Part shown: positions 43,561 to 61,932 of the stretch, in pieces
Layout: every line of letters begins with the position of its first letter
How positions within the stretch are numbered: position 1 is the stretch's first letter
Source: Escherichia phage SUT_E1620
Sequence record: OQ939939
Strand: one strand, 5' to 3'
Length of the DNA stretch: 64,000 bases
Notes under the pieces: generated by a model
Told to the model about the DNA's origin: nothing
What the model saw: the letters and a program-made list of their open reading frames with translations, nothing else
Databases searched by the model: none
Translations under genes and position numbers: made by a program

Positions 43561-44067
43561 TTACTGGATTGATTCCCTACCGTATAATTGACCTCTAAAC
43601 ATCTTGGCCATAGAACATGCAACCTCATAGTTGTCATATGTTCCTTTAACTATACGTTTACGGTTAATAGTAAATACTACTTGCCAATTCTTACTACCAG
43701 AAGGGTAAACATGCATTCCTTTCTTATATTTGATATTTCTTAGATTACCGGATACTGTTTGCTCTCTAAGATTTTCAATACGATCATCACCTTTTATAGT
43801 ATTCACATGATCTACTAAATCAGGTAAGTATCCATGATGCATTAAAAATATTGCTCTATGCCGAAGCATAGTCCTATTCCCTAGAGATATACGATAATAT
43901 CCGTTACCCGTAGAAACACAACATTCTTTCCCTGCATTTCTTCCTGTAGTTCTAAATAACTTACCATCTTCATATCGGAAGTTATCTAAAAGTTCTTGCT
44001 GTGTGAATGACATCCTCACCTCCAATACATATATTATTACATAATCCATCCAAATTGTCAACGACAA
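43561..44067 (-). CDS. HNH homing endonuclease
   Basis: HNH motif (HRAIFLMHHGYLPDLVDHVNTIKGDDRIENL); probable start at internal Met (MSFTQQ, about 44013) preceded by GGAGG. Confidence 0.6.
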   Translation of the reverse strand: MSLTIWMDYVIIYVLEVRMSFTQQELLDNFRYEDGKLFRTTGRNAGKECCVSTGNGYYRISLGNRTMLRHRAIFLMHHGYLPDLVDHVNTIKGDDRIENLREQTVSGNLRNIKYKKGMHVYPSGSKNWQVVFTINRKRIVKGTYDNYEVACSMAKMFRGQLYGRESIQ

Positions 44068-44070: not shown

Positions 44071-44152
44071 ATTTTGACTGTCAATCGACTGGAAAGATTA
44101 CGTAATAATCCGAGCACTAATAGCCCGGATTACAAATTTCAGCTAATAAAAA

Positions 44153-44548
44153 TCATTCATCATTTAAGCCCGAAACATAAATCCCAACACGATTTAATTG
44201 TTCTTTAGCTTCTGCGAGAATATTTGGAGTGTACTCCCAAATATCATCTTCCACCTGTAAAAGATGGGGCGAACAACCGTCATCAGGCACACGACATATG
44301 GCCAAACCACGTGGATGGAATATAGAGAAGTTTAGGGCAACAATCAAGCCCATGCTGGACAATTCATTCCAGTCAGCTTCCCAACCATCATCTTCATTTT
44401 CGTCCACAAAGACACCTACACTAGGGTCTGTTACAGAAGTAAACGGAAATGTTACACTAACCTTGTCAACCCCCCACCAACGTGCAAGGAGCCCCTCAGC
44501 ACGCTCTACCAAACTAGGATCTATCTGACGCCAAAATACTTGTTCCAT
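44153..44548 (-). CDS. hypothetical protein, paralog A of a tandem pair
   Basis: 131 aa; about 35 percent identity by eye to the adjacent 142-aa ORF (shared W..ELxxMGL..ALN...P...SP...G). Confidence 0.45.
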   Translation of the reverse strand: MEQVFWRQIDPSLVERAEGLLARWWGVDKVSVTFPFTSVTDPSVGVFVDENEDDGWEADWNELSSMGLIVALNFSIFHPRGLAICRVPDDGCSPHLLQVEDDIWEYTPNILAEAKEQLNRVGIYVSGLNDE

Positions 44549-44557
44549 TCTGCCTCC

Positions 44558-44986
44558 TTAAGCAGTTAAACCTGGGATCATATACCCGAAACGACGAAGT
44601 TTCTGAATTCCCTCATTTACTTCCTCGGGCGAATATGACCAGCCCTCACGTTCATTTACCTGGAAAGCAGGAGCTTCACCAGTGCGATAATTTACAATAA
44701 GACGGTGATTTGCAGGCATAAACAGCTTATGGTTCAAGGCAAAAACCAGACCCATTTCATCGAGTTCTTTCCAGTCTACAATCTCTTCTACTCCCTCCCC
44801 TAAATCCACGCTAACTCCAATACACGGAGCTTCCTCTAGCGGGCCTTTAAAGGATAAGAAGATATCGTTATTCTCACACCAAATCTTGAGCAGATTGATG
44901 GTTTCATTATACATACCATTAGGGAGAGAGCGCCAGAAGTTGAGAAGCATAGGATTTACCTCTTTCATGAAAATATTATTGAACAT
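44558..44986 (-). CDS. hypothetical protein, paralog B of a tandem pair
   Basis: 142 aa; homologous to adjacent 131-aa ORF. Confidence 0.45.
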   Translation of the reverse strand: MFNNIFMKEVNPMLLNFWRSLPNGMYNETINLLKIWCENNDIFLSFKGPLEEAPCIGVSVDLGEGVEEIVDWKELDEMGLVFALNHKLFMPANHRLIVNYRTGEAPAFQVNEREGWSYSPEEVNEGIQKLRRFGYMIPGLTA

Positions 44987-44988
44987 GC

Positions 44989-45528
44989 TTATACCTTAAG
45001 TTTCTGAAGAGCCTTACACATTTCAAGATCTGGACTAAATTCCAGCATATAGCTGATAGCATTTAAATCTTGAAGGTTTATTCCAGTCCTACCATTTACA
45101 ATAACAGTAGGAAATTGGTACATCATAGCACCAGCATCATCTAGGACGCACCAATGCTTGAGCTTATGTTTTTCTACGAAACGTAAGACAGAATTACCTC
45201 GAGATAAACCACCTCCAGTAAAATCTGTTGTACCAAGGAAACGATCGATCAAACCGAGCCCGGTCATAATCTGAACGTTCTCCATCTCGTTTCGTACAGA
45301 AAACCATGAAGATACCCCAACAATCATTATTGGAGAAGGTTTAAGGAAGTTCTGAAAAGCCTGGAGTAATGGCTTATAAACCCAATCACTACCAAAGAAT
45401 AGCTTTTCACTATCTGGAGCATGATGGTGAGAGATGCTCGAATTGAGCACCCCATCAATATCCAGGAAAATTATAGGAGTATTACTTATTTCCACCAGTA
45501 GCATCCCACGTCCAGACTTTAACTTCAT
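44989..45528 (-). CDS. HAD-superfamily phosphatase-like protein
   Basis: 179 aa; motif I FLDIDGVLN near N-terminus; probable start at internal Met (MLLVEISN...). Confidence 0.4.
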   Translation of the reverse strand: MKLKSGRGMLLVEISNTPIIFLDIDGVLNSSISHHHAPDSEKLFFGSDWVYKPLLQAFQNFLKPSPIMIVGVSSWFSVRNEMENVQIMTGLGLIDRFLGTTDFTGGGLSRGNSVLRFVEKHKLKHWCVLDDAGAMMYQFPTVIVNGRTGINLQDLNAISYMLEFSPDLEMCKALQKLKV

Positions 45529-45667
45529 CAGTAAAAGGAACTGGAACCTTCAGCTCACCTTTACCCCACATAACAGATAGGAACAGAGAATAAATGGTAA
45601 TCATACCGATTAGGTTGACAAACCATACTAGACCTTTCCAGATACCCTTAAAAATCTTCTTTATCAT
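45482..45667 (-). CDS. small membrane protein
   Basis: 61 aa with one hydrophobic helix (WFVNLIGMITIYSLFLSVMW). Confidence 0.3.
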   Translation of the reverse strand: MIKKIFKGIWKGLVWFVNLIGMITIYSLFLSVMWGKGELKVPVPFTDEVKVWTWDATGGNK

Positions 45668-45879
45668 TCGTTCTCCTCTAGGAACGCTTTATGTTCCGGT
45701 GTGTCGATATAGATTACACAGAAATCATCTGACATATAATCCATTTCCCACAACTCTTCACGATAGCACCATGTTTTATCTGGCCATACAATTATATCAT
45801 CAGGGTGTCTTTTAGGTGATTTGTAAAATCGGGGATCTGATCCCATATCTCCCATTTTACCCTTATTAGGATGCGACAT
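45664..45879 (-). CDS. hypothetical protein
   Basis: 71 aa; coupled to flanking genes by 4-nt overlaps. Confidence 0.3.
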   Translation of the reverse strand: MSHPNKGKMGDMGSDPRFYKSPKRHPDDIIVWPDKTWCYREELWEMDYMSDDFCVIYIDTPEHKAFLEENE

Positions 45880-46708
45880 AAATAGTTCCTTCCATAAAGG
45901 CTTCTACTTGACCAATGAAATGCTTGTTACCAAAAACTTCGGCAGCTCCAGCACGCCATACAGTAACACCACGTTTCTCATACTCAAGCTGTTCGTCATA
46001 ACGAACTTGTGGGTTAACAACCATCATCTTAGTTCCACGACATACAGCAGGAAATAGCTCCCAGTTGAAGTCGATTACTTGGTTGCTACAACCTACTACA
46101 ATAACCATATCATTGCTAGTAAGTGTATCAAACAGGTTAATCTGACCCATATACCACGGAGCCGTCTCACCAAAGAATGTTACGTTTGGTTTTACCCATT
46201 CGTAATCCTCAGGGGCAATCGCAGTATACCCAACATCTTCGATGATTTGGTTGCGACCCTGACGATAGATCACCTCTTTCAAGTACCCGTGAGCGTGAAT
46301 GATTTCATCACGAGGGATACCAGCACGTTCCAGAAGGTCATCAACGTTAGTAGTGAAGTTCTTCACGCTATCCGCACCATAACGCTGGAACCATTCTGCA
46401 ATTCGCAGATGGGCAATGTTAGGCTCAACAGTCTGTAATTCCTGACGACGCATATTGTAGAACTCATGAGTCTTGAGATACAGATCGTTACCATCTTCAT
46501 CAATGCCATGGAAACGAGCACTGAAGTAGTTAGGGTCATCTTCACCACAGAAGCGACGGAAGCCAGCTTCAAAGTTAGGCAAGCTACATACTTCCTCTAG
46601 ATCGTACTCATCCCACAAGGATTTCCCACTAGCAGTATCAGTACGGAAAGCACGAACACCACTATCTACACTCAAACCTGCACCACTAACAACGATTAGT
46701 CTACGCAT
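45866..46708 (-). CDS. Sir2-family (sirtuin-like) NAD+-binding protein lacking the Zn-ribbon
   Basis: 280 aa; sirtuin motifs in order: GAGLSVDSGVRAFR, NIAHLRIAEW, TTNVDDL, HG, FFGE, VVGCS, VVN; no Cys pairs between HG and FGE. Confidence 0.65.
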   Translation of the reverse strand: MRRLIVVSGAGLSVDSGVRAFRTDTASGKSLWDEYDLEEVCSLPNFEAGFRRFCGEDDPNYFSARFHGIDEDGNDLYLKTHEFYNMRRQELQTVEPNIAHLRIAEWFQRYGADSVKNFTTNVDDLLERAGIPRDEIIHAHGYLKEVIYRQGRNQIIEDVGYTAIAPEDYEWVKPNVTFFGETAPWYMGQINLFDTLTSNDMVIVVGCSNQVIDFNWELFPAVCRGTKMMVVNPQVRYDEQLEYEKRGVTVWRAGAAEVFGNKHFIGQVEAFMEGTIYVAS

Positions 46709-46986
46709 TATACGATTCCTTGCTTGAATCCTTCGATGATATTTTGGAGCAGAATTGCTTCTTCTGGGCGAACCTTCTCTTGCTTAATAAGCATATCCAA
46801 ACCAGCAATACAAGTAGCTACCCCAGCATTATATCCAGCATTCCACTGCTCCATGAGCATATTTTCTAAATTACTTTTTAGATTCTGATTCAAGAAGTCC
46901 ATAAAGTTTTTCCTCCAATTCCATAATACGATTTTCGTAAGAAGCACGCAGCTTCTCGATGGACAAAGCACGAACTGTAACTTCAT
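46708..46986 (-). CDS. hypothetical protein
   Basis: 92-aa ORF; probable start at internal Met because the 5' part overlaps the upstream ORF. Confidence 0.3.
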   Translation of the reverse strand: MKLQFVLCPSRSCVLLTKIVLWNWRKNFMDFLNQNLKSNLENMLMEQWNAGYNAGVATCIAGLDMLIKQEKVRPEEAILLQNIIEGFKQGIV

Positions 46987-47089
46987 CTGAATTGATCGCT
47001 AGCTGAGCTAGATCTTCTGTTTCCATACGTCCGTTGTAAATTAAGCGATACTTAAGATGTTTTACGTTTTTCATATTTTCTCCTCTCAA
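46871..47089 (-). CDS. hypothetical protein
   Basis: 72 aa; first gene behind promoter at about 47091-47119; SD GGAGAA. Confidence 0.3.
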   Translation of the reverse strand: MRGENMKNVKHLKYRLIYNGRMETEDLAQLAINSDEVTVRALSIEKLRASYENRIMELEEKLYGLLESESKK

Positions 47090-47090
47090 A

Positions 47091-47119
47091 TTTATGAGAA
47101 TATAATATCAAATAAAAGC
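47091..47119 (-). promoter_or_regulatory. promoter of the Sir2-containing accessory operon
   Basis: TTGCTT-17-TATTAT followed by TCATAAATTTGAGAGGAGAAAATATG. Confidence 0.5.
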
Positions 47120-47139
47120 GATATAAGCAAGTACTTTAT

Positions 47140-47826
47140 TTATTTTTCTACCTTCACACACCCATTATTAATTAAATACTCTTCCGCGACTGTAGCAGAT
47201 ATATCGAAGAATTCAGTACATCCAGCAAATCCTGTATACTTTAACCTATATCCTGAAAAGTATTCATGAGCCTGCTTCTCAATAGCTCTACTTTTAGACT
47301 TGGTACCTATATCTACTGAATAGACACCAAAAATATACAAATCCATTATATTGGAACTTTTAACTATCTCTTTCCTTCGTCTTTCAGGAGAGACACTAAT
47401 TCCTATTTTAGTTCCCATATTACTACACATAATGTATATAAAACCAGGAACACTCCAATCAGTATCACATACAGGACATCCAGAATTCTTATTCTTTACA
47501 TTACCTACTGTAGCTTCCCACGTATGCCCATACTCACATTCAAAAAGGGTTTTAGTAGCATTATTTTTATACTCTCCAATAAGGGTTATACCTCTGCCAC
47601 GTAACTCTTCGTTCACCGAATCTTTGGTAAGCTTTAAAGTACCTGAGCATATTGGACAGCCAGATTTGCTGTTCCTTACATTATTAACCGTAGCTTCCCA
47701 CGTATGACCTATATTACATCTGAACGTACCCTTACTAAGGATTCCTGAATACTCGCTTACTAGCTTAATTCTTCTAGGCTCTAAATCTTTATTGATAGTA
47801 TCTTTATCTAACTTCCTTCGTACCAT
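47140..47826 (-). CDS. T5orf172/GIY-YIG-like putative homing endonuclease with duplicated Zn-binding module
   Basis: 228 aa; two repeats of C.IGHTWEATV.NV.N..SGCP.C; C-terminal GFIYIMC....KIGIS core; sits beside nrdD. Confidence 0.5.
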   Translation of the reverse strand: MVRRKLDKDTINKDLEPRRIKLVSEYSGILSKGTFRCNIGHTWEATVNNVRNSKSGCPICSGTLKLTKDSVNEELRGRGITLIGEYKNNATKTLFECEYGHTWEATVGNVKNKNSGCPVCDTDWSVPGFIYIMCSNMGTKIGISVSPERRRKEIVKSSNIMDLYIFGVYSVDIGTKSKSRAIEKQAHEYFSGYRLKYTGFAGCTEFFDISATVAEEYLINNGCVKVEK

Positions 47827-61614: not shown

Positions 61615-61932
61615 ATGACTTTACATATTTTGTTTGATGATGTACGTGACTTAAATGGAATGGATATCATCATCAGAAACCCTGATGTAGCGTACGAAAT
61701 GCTCTATCAGTTACAACTCCAGGGTAATTATCTTTATTTAGATAATGACATGGGTAGTAAAGTAGAAGGCCACCATTTGTTAAGTCGTATCCTAGAAGAT
61801 AAAGATTTGTACCCTAAAAAGGTGGTTTTAGTCACCAGCAATTCTGTTGCTGCAGAAAATATGCGCCAACAGTTAAAAACAGCTGGTTATCAAGAAAACC
61901 CCAATCGTATTGAGTACGATTGGCAGGAGTAA
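61615..61932 (+). CDS. hypothetical protein with receiver-domain-like pattern
   Basis: 105 aa; ILFDDVRD ... YLDNDMG ... VVLVTSNS ... K pattern loosely resembles CheY-like receiver fold; own promoter. Confidence 0.3.
   Translation: MTLHILFDDVRDLNGMDIIIRNPDVAYEMLYQLQLQGNYLYLDNDMGSKVEGHHLLSRILEDKDLYPKKVVLVTSNSVAAENMRQQLKTAGYQENPNRIEYDWQE

What the first reader, a model, noticed from the sequence alone, without database searches (positions are those of the whole stretch)
44153..47119. Eight-gene accessory operon: Sir2-like, HAD-like phosphatase, small membrane protein and paralog pair behind one promoter
One T5-type promoter (about 47091-47119, - strand) precedes eight tightly coupled ORFs (4-nt overlaps): two small proteins, the Sir2-like protein, a 71-aa protein, a 61-aa single-helix membrane protein, a HAD-motif (FLDIDGV) phosphatase-like protein and the two paralogs. 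The block lies between two homing-endonuclease genes and is not needed for any obvious replication step. A NAD+-site enzyme next to a phosphatase suggests a small-molecule (NAD+/ADP-ribose/nucleotide) pathway, making this the best candidate in the window for an uncharacterised host-takeover or anti-defence module.
Basis: inference. Interest (0 to 1): 0.6.

Follow-up and report, generated by a model that had tools for sequence, protein, structure and literature searches.

The report
Known T5 early operon: sirtuin plus phosphatase
This is the already catalogued early accessory operon of T5-like phages (T5 genes T5.101-T5.107); its sirtuin and HAD phosphatase were predicted in 2022 to repair cut RNA ends using NAD+, a function nobody has tested.

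Summary
Eight conserved genes lie on the minus strand (44153-47074) behind one T5-type early promoter and before a terminator hairpin, flanked by two homing-endonuclease genes. Only one junction is a true 4-nt overlap, and the -35 box lies outside the stated promoter coordinates.

The block is the orthologue of T5 genes T5.101-T5.107 and occurs in about 470 sequenced T5-like phages. It lacks the first gene, T5.100, found in relatives. Its enzymes are a zinc-less sirtuin with an intact NAD+ site and catalytic histidine, and a capless HAD phosphatase (Pfam HAD_SAK_2). The paralog pair is DUF7415, an orphan fold.

Iyer et al. 2022 already described this sirtuin-HAD neighbourhood in T5-like phages and predicted NAD+-dependent RNA-end repair. 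My context analysis fits that. Relatives of the sirtuin and, separately, of the HAD sit beside RNA ligases, cREC and 2H enzymes, Macro, Nudix and NAD+ salvage genes. The window itself encodes a cREC protein at 61615-61932.

However, sirtuin and HAD are linked only in T5-like phages, no RNA ligase is recognisable, and two viable phages have deleted both. The eight genes are one transcription unit, not one demonstrated pathway. Function remains untested; novelty is low.

The parts
47081..47130 (-). T5-type early promoter and leader. -35 TTGCTT at 47130-47125, 17-nt spacer, extended -10 TG-n-TATTAT at 47110-47102, conserved CATAAATTTGAGAGGAG with Shine-Dalgarno GAGAGGAG at 47087-47080.
   Evidence: Sequence read. 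Aligns with T5 PN25, PN26 and the annotated T5.100 promoter. Identical to the promoter upstream of the T5.100-like gene in KKP_3831.
46871..47074 (-). o1, 67 aa, orthologue of T5.101. Charged and probably helical; function unknown.
   Evidence: phrog_5236, 2e-46. 91% identical to T5.101.
46708..46902 (-). o2, 64 aa, function unknown. Overlaps o1 by 32 nt. A GGAGG lies about 10 nt upstream of the ATG at 46902.
   Evidence: phrog_5827, 2e-32. Annotated at this length in Sw2 and SIY1lw. Not annotated in T5.
45866..46708 (-). Sirtuin (Sir2) of the phage-specific clade. NAD+ site and catalytic histidine intact, zinc-binding cysteines absent, 26-aa insert at about residues 50-77.
   Evidence: Pfam SIR2 6e-22. 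Best solved relative is E. coli CobB, 1s5p, 1.6e-16. GAGxS, FR, N121, D123, H140 and FGE are invariant against CobB, and no zinc cysteines occur in any of 7 phage sirtuins. 980 phage records carry relatives.
45664..45879 (-). o4, 71 aa (start uncertain), function unknown. A relative also follows Sir2 in Klebsiella T5-like phages, and T5.104 is homologous.
   Evidence: phrog_5116, 2e-27. tblastn matches in T5 and Roth49.
45482..45667 (-). o5, 61 aa, single-pass membrane protein. ATGA overlap with o4. No detectable homologue in T5.
   Evidence: phrog_11166, 2.5e-44. One hydrophobic 19-mer. Annotated 'TMD' in Sw2. No match in the T5 locus.
44989..45504 (-). Capless HAD phosphatase of the HAD_SAK_2 family, orthologue of T5.105. 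Start is ATG 45504 or GTG 45495.
   Evidence: Pfam PF18143 5e-19. Invariant D15, D17, S65, T96-G98, R102, D122 and D123. AlphaFold2 pLDDT 94. Nearest solved folds are capless HADs: MDP-1, T4 and mammalian PNKP, Scp1; all weak.
44558..44986 (-). o7, 142 aa, DUF7415 protein, orthologue of T5.106.
   Evidence: Pfam DUF7415 9e-37, two stretches. 73% identical to T5.106.
44153..44548 (-). o8, 131 aa, DUF7415 protein, orthologue of T5.107 and paralog of o7.
44106..44133 (-). Terminator-like hairpin ending the unit: 11-bp stem, 7-nt loop, weak T tract.
   Evidence: -15.9 kcal/mol, z -2.9. Same position as the annotated T5 terminator.
43561..44067 (-). Flanking HNH homing-endonuclease gene (probable start ATG 44013) with its own promoter-like site at 44061-44033. 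Not part of the operon.
   Evidence: Pfam HNH_3 3e-11. Promoter-like site matches 11 of 12 positions plus TG. Absent at this position in Sw2 and T5.
47140..47826 (-). Flanking homing-endonuclease-like gene: two DUF4379/CapR zinc fingers plus a T5orf172/MUG113 nuclease domain. Not part of the operon.
   Evidence: Pfam. Present in KKP_3831, absent in Sw2 and T5.
61615..61932 (+). Unlinked cREC (cyclic-phosphate processing receiver domain) protein, 105 aa, orthologue of T5.084. A possible third component of the same RNA-end-processing set.
   Evidence: Pfam PF20274 1.9e-12, 48 bits against a cut-off of 27. T5.084 gives 3.4e-15. First seen as a weak phmmer hit to the cREC next to Sir2 in phage navn.

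Best explanation
The block is the early accessory transcription unit of T5-like phages (T5.101-T5.107). One strong sigma-70 early promoter drives it soon after the phage DNA enters the cell.

Its functional core is two enzymes. One is a zinc-less but catalytically intact sirtuin. The other is a capless HAD phosphomonoesterase of the HAD_SAK_2 family.

The most likely role is healing RNA ends, chiefly tRNA ends, that host ribonucleases have cut to leave 2',3'-cyclic phosphate. The proposed steps are:
1. A cyclic phosphodiesterase opens the cyclic phosphate. The candidate is the phage's unlinked cREC protein at 61615-61932.
2. The HAD removes a terminal phosphate.
3. The sirtuin uses NAD+ to take off a 2'-phosphate, in the way KptA/Tpt1 does, releasing nicotinamide and an ADP-ribose phosphate.
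4. Resealing would have to be done by a host ligase, because the phage has no recognisable RNA ligase.

Shown here: gene content, catalytic motifs, promoter and terminator, synteny, and the gene contexts of relatives. Inferred: every chemical step, the substrate and the ligase. The two DUF7415 paralogs and the four small proteins share the transcript, but nothing shows they belong to the same pathway.
For: 1. The window sirtuin belongs to the phage sirtuin clade. It is 46% identical to the sirtuin of Vequintavirus navn and 35% to that of Serratia phage BF. In navn the sirtuin lies between an Rnl1-type RNA ligase with a cREC-like protein on one side and a MazG-like protein on the other. In BF it lies between a 2H-type 'RNA ligase' and a Nudix gene, beside NadV.
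2. HAD relatives in unrelated viral contigs sit beside RNA ligases (L041/42, L049/51, Aeh1 rnlA), directly upstream of cREC genes (L038, L045), next to Macro (L045), and next to NadV/NadM (L052, L085, L092).
3. The HAD has all catalytic motifs and no cap in a confident model. Its nearest solved folds are capless HADs, enzymes known from the literature to act on macromolecules, including T4 and mammalian PNKP.
4. The sirtuin keeps its NAD+ site and catalytic histidine but lacks the zinc module found in characterised deacylase sirtuins.
5. The phage encodes a cREC protein, and T5 carries 25 tRNA genes.
6. SelmaRatti and DT57C have each lost Sir2 and HAD together through one deletion.
7. The same prediction for this neighbourhood was published independently (PMC9503650).
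Against: - No experiment exists for any phage sirtuin of this clade (literature searches).
- No Rnl1-type RNA ligase, 2H, Macro or MazG homologue (or relative of the V5-type phosphoesterase) was found in the window plus T5 1-72 kb. A polynucleotide kinase was not searched for; none is annotated in T5 1-72 kb. The pathway is therefore incomplete.
- The sirtuin-HAD linkage occurs in one lineage only. It could be inherited synteny rather than functional coupling: 0 of about 58 non-T5 HAD loci have a sirtuin nearby. Klebsiella T5-like phages lack the HAD.
- The best solved relative of the sirtuin is a protein deacylase, CobB.
- The best fold match of the HAD is MDP-1, a protein phosphatase, and all its fold matches are weak, with TM about 0.5 or less.
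- Removing a 3'-phosphate would work against the host ligase RtcB, which needs it (general knowledge).
Confidence: 0.4

Rival explanations
1. Protein-modification erasers for host takeover. The sirtuin is a CobB-like NAD+-dependent lysine deacylase or protein ADP-ribosyltransferase acting on host or phage proteins. The capless HAD is a phosphoprotein phosphatase. Together they reset host protein modifications early in infection.
For: The closest solved and curated relatives of the sirtuin are protein deacylases: CobB 1.6e-16 and NCBIfam deacylase models. The catalytic histidine and NAD+ motifs are intact. The best fold matches of the HAD include MDP-1 and the Scp1 CTD phosphatase, which are protein phosphatases.
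Against: The sirtuin falls far below every curated deacylase cut-off (88 bits against 243). It lacks the zinc module present in characterised deacylases. Gene contexts of both families point to RNA ligases, cREC, 2H and NAD+/ADP-ribose enzymes, not to protein-modification genes.
Confidence: 0.2
2. One reading: a small-molecule NAD+/ADP-ribose pathway or anti-defence module. The sirtuin and HAD make, consume or destroy an NAD+-derived metabolite or immune signal, for example ADP-ribose phosphates, cyclic ADP-ribose isomers or NADP.
For: In other phages HAD relatives lie directly beside NadV, NadM, Macro and a nucleoside-deoxyribosyltransferase-like gene. In Serratia phage BF the sirtuin lies beside NadV, a cytidylyltransferase and Nudix. 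NAD+ supply matters for T5-like phages: the NARP3 pathway was shown in Bas30 (PMC13464706), and T5 DNA ligase is annotated as NAD+-dependent.
Against: Capless HADs usually take macromolecular substrates (general knowledge of the HAD superfamily). There is no match to known anti-defence or defence families, nor to NadV, NadM or a NadR-like enzyme in the window. A free NAD+ hydrolase would hurt a phage that needs NAD+. The same contexts also contain RNA ligases and cREC genes, which the RNA-repair reading explains together with the NAD+ genes.
Confidence: 0.17
3. No joint function. The eight genes are unrelated accessory genes that happen to share an early promoter in a hypervariable slot between nrdD and the replication genes.
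For: - Sir2, HAD and DUF7415 each occur without the others in most other phage lineages.
- The Sir2 allele has been swapped independently of its neighbours: 52% identity to T5 Sir2 against 92% for the HAD.
- The small genes vary: o5 is absent from T5, and the T5.100 homologue is absent here.
- Homing endonucleases come and go at both ends.
- Parts of the block are deleted in viable phages.
Against: The order Sir2 then HAD then DUF7415 is kept from Markadamsvirinae (T5, Epseptimavirus) to the Mccorquodalevirinae phage My1 at 43-59% protein identity. The sirtuin and HAD families separately share the same set of neighbour families elsewhere. In Aeh1 a HAD, an RNA ligase and a DUF7415 gene lie within 2.6 kb.
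Confidence: 0.23

Closest known systems
Bacteriophage T5 genes T5.100-T5.107 (NC_005859 55786-58927), with annotated promoter and terminator
   Same: Same position between nrdD and the replication-origin-binding gene. Same order: o1/T5.101, Sir2/T5.102, o4/T5.104, HAD/T5.105, DUF7415/T5.106 and T5.107. Same type of promoter and same terminator position.
   Different: The window lacks the T5.100 homologue. Its Sir2 is a different allele, 52% identical and carrying a 26-aa insert. o5 has no T5 homologue. Two homing-endonuclease genes flank the block here but not in T5.
Phage sirtuin-centred predicted RNA-repair neighbourhoods, type 3 (sirtuin plus 'Swiss-army-knife' HAD, Escherichia phage SP15); Iyer, Burroughs, Anantharaman and Aravind 2022, Viruses 14:1977
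   Same: Same two families in the same phage group. The sirtuin has no adjacent Macro gene. Related sirtuins sit beside an RNA ligase with cREC and MazG (V5 type) or beside 2H and Nudix (BF type), which I confirmed from annotated records.
   Different: In the passages I retrieved, that paper describes only the sirtuin and the HAD in this neighbourhood. Here I add the unlinked cREC gene, the natural co-deletions, the restriction of the linkage to one lineage, and the DUF7415 contexts. The activity is still only predicted.
KptA/Tpt1 RNA 2'-phosphotransferase
   Same: Proposed analogous chemistry: NAD+-dependent removal of an RNA 2'-phosphate, releasing nicotinamide.
   Different: Unrelated fold and no sequence similarity. 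This is a 'works like' proposal only, and it is untested.
T4 Pnkp plus Rnl1 tRNA repair against the PrrC anticodon nuclease
   Same: A HAD-type end-healing phosphatase in an early phage gene set. HAD relatives lie near rnlA in Aeromonas phage Aeh1. T4 PNKP is among the fold matches.
   Different: No kinase domain and no RNA ligase are recognisable in the T5-like genome parts searched. The fold match is weak.
E. coli CobB and other class III/U sirtuin deacylases
   Same: Best solved sequence relative. Shares the GAGxS motif, N and D of the TQNxD motif, the catalytic histidine and the FGE motif.
   Different: No zinc-binding cysteines. Far below the curated family cut-offs. Phage-specific clade.

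Membership tests
Sirtuin (SIR2, PF02146) superfamily | Profile match above the curated threshold | tested here: met
   78.8 bits against a cut-off of 24, E 6e-22.
Sirtuin (SIR2, PF02146) superfamily | NAD+-binding motifs (GAGxSxxSGxxxFR; N and D of TQNxD) and the catalytic histidine | tested here: met
   G9-A10-G11-S13, F21-R22, N121, D123 and H140 are invariant with CobB and six phage sirtuins. Gln of TQN is replaced by Thr.
Sirtuin (SIR2, PF02146) superfamily | Four-cysteine zinc-binding module of canonical deacylase sirtuins | tested here: not met
   None of the 7 phage sirtuins has cysteines at the CobB zinc positions.
Curated bacterial protein deacylases (CobB equivalogs, NCBIfam) | Score above the equivalog or subfamily cut-off | tested here: not met
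   Best score 87.9 bits against a cut-off of 243.
Phage 'RNA-repair' sirtuin clade (Iyer et al. 2022) | Sequence affinity to the V5-type and Serratia BF-type phage sirtuins | tested here: met
   46% identity to navn and 35% to BF over nearly full length.
Phage 'RNA-repair' sirtuin clade (Iyer et al. 2022) | Neighbourhood with an RNA-end-processing enzyme and no adjacent Macro gene | tested here: met
   HAD_SAK_2 lies two genes downstream in the same operon. No Macro homologue in the window.
Phage 'RNA-repair' sirtuin clade (Iyer et al. 2022) | NAD+-dependent RNA 2'-phosphate removal | not testable with these tools
   Needs biochemistry. No published assay was found.
HAD superfamily, HAD_SAK_2 (PF18143) | Profile match above threshold, plus motif I DxDG(T/V), motif II S/T and motif IV DD | tested here: met
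   69.6 bits against 27.5. D15-x-D17-G-V, S65/S66 and D122-D123 are invariant in 19-21 homologues.
HAD superfamily, HAD_SAK_2 (PF18143) | Motif III Lys/Arg | tested here: inconclusive
   R102 is invariant and is the likely equivalent. It was assigned from the alignment only.
HAD superfamily, HAD_SAK_2 (PF18143) | Capless (C0) architecture typical of HADs with macromolecular substrates | tested here: met
   The 171-aa model (pLDDT 94) has only a short beta-hairpin after motif I. The nearest folds are the capless MDP-1, PNKP and Scp1.
T4-type Pnkp/Rnl RNA repair system | Polynucleotide kinase and RNA ligase encoded by the phage | tested here: not met
   No RNA ligase homologue by phmmer in the window plus T5 1-72 kb. 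None is annotated in T5 1-72 kb. A kinase was not searched by profile. T5 72-122 kb was not searched directly.
Phage NAD+ reconstitution pathways (NARP2 NadV/NadM type; NARP3 PnuC/NadR) | Presence of the pathway enzymes in or next to the block | tested here: not met
   No NadV, NadM or NadR-like homologue and no multi-pass membrane ORF in the window. NARP1 was not tested because no query sequences were available.
Defence-type Sir2 NADases (Thoeris ThsA, DSR, Sir2-HerA) and other PADLOC families | Match to a defence-system profile | tested here: not met
   No family reaches E <= 0.01 for any of the eight proteins.
DUF7415 (PF24187) | Profile match above threshold | tested here: met
   o7 scores 125.5 bits and o8 88 bits against a cut-off of 27, two stretches each.

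The most novel reading that the evidence does not exclude
The sirtuin, the HAD and the unlinked cREC protein form a ligase-less, NAD+-dependent tRNA end-healing system. It lets T5-like phages undo cuts made by host anticodon nucleases and hands the healed ends to a host ligase. That would be the first sirtuin shown to act on RNA. The DUF7415 orphan-fold domain also occurs fused to a P-loop kinase and to a MazG-like pyrophosphatase, and lies next to rnlA and nrdD in other phages. It would then be a new adaptor or regulator of this nucleotide and RNA-repair network.
Probability: 0.25. Interest if true: 0.7.

Novelty: already known. Interest (0 to 1): 0.3.

Why it matters
If the published prediction is right, these very common phage sirtuins (980 phage records carry relatives) would be RNA 2'-phosphate-removing enzymes. 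That would be a new activity for the sirtuin fold and a counter-measure to the growing list of tRNA-cutting bacterial defences. T5-like phages are used in therapy and biocontrol, and natural deletants (SelmaRatti, DT57C) already exist, so the idea is cheap to test. As a scan finding, though, it identifies a catalogued, conserved operon whose most interesting link is already in the literature.

Tried and rejected
- PADLOC profiles for all eight proteins: no hit.
- NCBIfam: only sub-threshold deacylase hits for Sir2.
- PDB sequence search for the HAD: nothing meaningful. For o7: only single leucine-rich-repeat-like motif hits to repeat proteins, judged spurious.
- Pfam and PHROG scans of Sir2 neighbours in a Phapecoctavirus, and of HAD neighbours in Morganella phage Rgz1: uninformative.
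- BLAST clustering of all neighbours of about 58 non-T5 HAD loci: no single dominant partner family.
- Search for Rnl1-type RNA ligase, 2H, Macro, NadV, NadM, NadR-like and MazG in the window and T5 1-72 kb: none. This search turned up only the cREC gene.
- Literature: no experimental paper on a T5-type phage sirtuin, the HAD or DUF7415. Burroughs and Aravind 2016 (the origin of HAD_SAK) could not be read.
- Free NADase or NAD+ depletion: set aside on my own reasoning, because T5's DNA ligase is annotated NAD+-dependent and relatives carry NAD+ rebuilding genes.

Full report
**What is there**

The window comes from a T5-like phage (Demerecviridae, closest to Epseptimavirus). The stretch 43500-47900 matches 471 phage records.

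On the minus strand there are eight real genes. Each matches a conserved phage protein family, with PHROG E-values from 2e-27 to 4e-107:
- o1, 46871-47074.
- o2, 46708-46902.
- Sir2, 45866-46708.
- o4, 45664-45879.
- o5, 45482-45667, with one membrane helix.
- HAD, 44989-45504.
- Two DUF7415 paralogs, 44558-44986 and 44153-44548. They are about 30% identical to each other.

**Boundaries of the unit**

The promoter is TTGCTT (47130-47125), a 17-nt spacer, TG-n-TATTAT (47110-47102), followed by CATAAATTTGAGAGGAG. It aligns with T5 PN25, PN26 and the annotated T5.100 promoter. The generic consensus scan missed it.

A hairpin at 44106-44133 (-15.9 kcal/mol, z -2.9) lies exactly where T5 has an annotated terminator. 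A separate promoter-like site for the downstream HNH gene follows it.

The genes are tightly packed, but only o4/o5 share an ATGA. The other junctions are overlaps of 32, 1, 14 and 14-23 nt, and gaps of 2 and 9 nt.

The flanking genes are homing-endonuclease types: HNH_3 on one side and DUF4379 zinc fingers plus T5orf172 on the other. They are present or absent in different relatives.

**It is a known operon**

The block is the orthologue of T5 genes T5.101-T5.107. In T5 these lie between nrdD and the replication-origin-binding gene and carry an annotated promoter and terminator.

The same slot and order occur in several groups:
- Sw2, SIY1lw and KKP_3831.
- The distant Pectobacterium phage My1: Sir2 59%, HAD 43%, one DUF7415 gene.
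- Klebsiella T5-like phages: Sir2 64%, two DUF7415 genes, no HAD.
- 19 of 19 T5-like viral contigs fetched through the HAD.

In relatives the same promoter precedes one more gene, the T5.100 homologue. In the window that gene is missing, and the promoter and ribosome-binding site join directly to o1.

**The proteins**

*Sirtuin.* It matches Pfam SIR2 (6e-22). Its best solved relative is E. coli CobB (1.6e-16). The NAD+ motifs, N121, D123, the catalytic H140 and FGE are invariant against CobB. The zinc cysteines are absent from all seven phage sirtuins compared. It falls far below the curated deacylase cut-offs and matches no defence-type Sir2 profile.

*HAD.* It matches PF18143, 'HAD domain in Swiss Army Knife RNA repair proteins' (5e-19). 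All catalytic motifs are invariant. A confident model (pLDDT 94) is capless. Its weak nearest folds are MDP-1, T4 and mammalian PNKP, and Scp1.

**What it most likely does**

Iyer et al. 2022 (PMC9503650) defined a phage-specific sirtuin clade. They listed three neighbourhood types: jumbo phages with 2H, Nudix, cREC and PIN; V5-like phages with an RNA ligase, cREC, a kinase and MazG; and T5-like phages (SP15) with the 'Swiss-army-knife' HAD. They proposed that the sirtuin removes RNA 2'-phosphates as KptA does.

I checked the contexts independently, and they hold:
- In navn the order is Rnl1-type ligase, cREC-like protein, Sir2, MazG-like protein.
- In Serratia phage BF the set is NadV, a 2H 'RNA ligase', Sir2, Nudix and PhoH.

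I then fetched about 58 viral contigs outside the T5 group that carry HAD relatives. None has a sirtuin or DUF7415 gene within 6 kb. Their neighbours nevertheless come from the same functional set:
- Rnl1-like ligase with MazG and a calcineurin-like phosphoesterase (L041/42).
- A PF09414 RNA ligase with Macro (L049/51).
- cREC directly downstream of the HAD (L038, L045).
- Macro directly upstream (L045).
- NadV and NadM (L052, L085, L092).

In Aeromonas phage Aeh1 a HAD relative, RNA ligase 1 (rnlA) and a DUF7415 ORF lie within 2.6 kb.

The window itself encodes a cREC protein at 61615-61932 (PF20274, 48 bits; the T5.084 orthologue).

Together this supports an RNA-end-healing role that consumes NAD+.

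**Weaknesses of that reading**

- There is no experiment.
- No Rnl1-type RNA ligase, 2H, Macro or MazG homologue is recognisable in the window plus T5 1-72 kb. A kinase was not searched for by profile.
- The sirtuin-HAD linkage exists in one lineage only, so synteny alone is weak evidence. Klebsiella T5-like phages lack the HAD.
- The sirtuin and HAD could equally be protein-modification erasers, given the CobB, MDP-1 and Scp1 similarities. They could also act on small NAD+-derived molecules, given the NadV, NadM and Macro contexts.

I rate RNA-end repair at about 0.4. The rivals are protein erasers at 0.2, a small-molecule or anti-defence pathway at 0.17, and no joint function at 0.23.

**Is the eight-gene block one module?**

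Probably not.
- Sir2 relatives occur in 980 phage records, the HAD in 498 and DUF7415 in 870, with largely different distributions.
- The window's HAD is 92% identical to T5's, but its Sir2 is only 52% identical. That Sir2 is closer to the Phapecoctavirus, My1 and Klebsiella forms, so the Sir2 allele has been exchanged in place.
- o5 has no T5 homologue.
- SelmaRatti carries a Sir2(1-130)::HAD(120-171) fusion left by a deletion. DT57C keeps only Sir2 197-250 plus HAD 131-171. Both keep o1, o2 and the DUF7415 pair, and both are viable phages. The Sir2-to-HAD segment is therefore dispensable on laboratory hosts and is lost as one piece.

**DUF7415**

An exhaustive profile search found 170 relatives at E <= 0.001. 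The conserved core is about 55 residues: DWNELSxxGLIxRINxEILHPxGLAxxRxPxxGxSxxLLVxDDGxWEY.

It occurs in four settings:
- Alone in small phage proteins.
- Fused to a thymidylate-kinase-like P-loop kinase.
- Fused to a MazG-like dATP/dGTP pyrophosphohydrolase.
- As a small ORF between nrdD and nrdG in Klebsiella T4-like phages, and directly after rnlA in Aeh1.

This places it loosely in nucleotide and RNA metabolism. No mechanism follows from it.

**Verdict**

The sirtuin-HAD link is real and NAD+-related. The evidence points to RNA-end repair rather than a small-molecule pathway, the eight genes are not one demonstrated system, and the idea is already published.

Novelty: already known. Interest: 0.3.

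Noticed in passing
window 61615-61932 (+): A 105-aa cREC (cyclic-phosphate processing receiver domain, PF20274) protein, orthologue of T5.084, annotated only as hypothetical in T5. cREC genes sit next to the related sirtuin in V5-like phages and directly after HAD relatives in two viral contigs.
   Followed up: partly
window 47074-47140 versus L003 6030-6470: The first gene of the operon in relatives (the T5.100 homologue, about 120 aa) is missing here. The same promoter and ribosome-binding site are joined directly to o1, next to a T5orf172 homing-endonuclease gene.
   Followed up: yes
window 45866-46708 versus L004 6448-7266: Mosaicism inside the operon. The HAD is 92% identical to T5's but Sir2 only 52%. 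The window's Sir2 carries a 26-aa insert (about residues 50-77) shared with the Phapecoctavirus and Klebsiella T5-like forms, so the Sir2 allele has been exchanged in place.
   Followed up: partly
L009 3501-3950 (SelmaRatti) and L010 3968-4240 (DT57C): Two viable T5-like phages carry in-frame remnants that fuse the Sir2 N-terminus or middle to the HAD C-terminus. They lack o4 and o5 but keep the DUF7415 pair. They are ready-made natural knockouts.
   Followed up: yes
L012 3989-4222 (Aeh1), L011 3495-3713 (JD18); proteins P0068, P0115: The 55-aa DUF7415 core occurs directly after RNA ligase 1 in Aeh1 and between nrdD and nrdG in Klebsiella T4-like phages. It is also fused to a P-loop kinase and to a MazG-like dATP/dGTP pyrophosphohydrolase.
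   Followed up: partly
public annotations of T5.105 and relatives; PHROG 18062: Annotation errors propagate. The HAD phosphatase is labelled 'Sir2 (NAD-dependent deacetylase)' in RefSeq T5 and many relatives. DUF7415 proteins are labelled 'tail tube protein' in some records.
   Followed up: yes
window 44033-44061 (-): A near-consensus sigma-70 promoter-like site (TTGACA, 17 nt, TG-n-AATAAT; 11 of 12 positions) lies just upstream of the probable start (44013) of the HNH endonuclease gene. The inserted endonuclease gene appears to bring or use its own promoter.
   Followed up: no
window 44558-44986 (-), o7 residues 15-42: The N-terminal part of o7 (NFWRSLPNGMYNETINLLKIW) resembles a single leucine-rich-repeat unit and gives hits to repeat proteins in the PDB (best E 3e-5). 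Probably a chance motif match.
   Followed up: no
L052 5995-7010: One uncultivated viral contig has two tandem HAD_SAK_2-like genes about 1.8 kb downstream of the NadM-like and NadV genes, with three unannotated ORFs between them.
   Followed up: no
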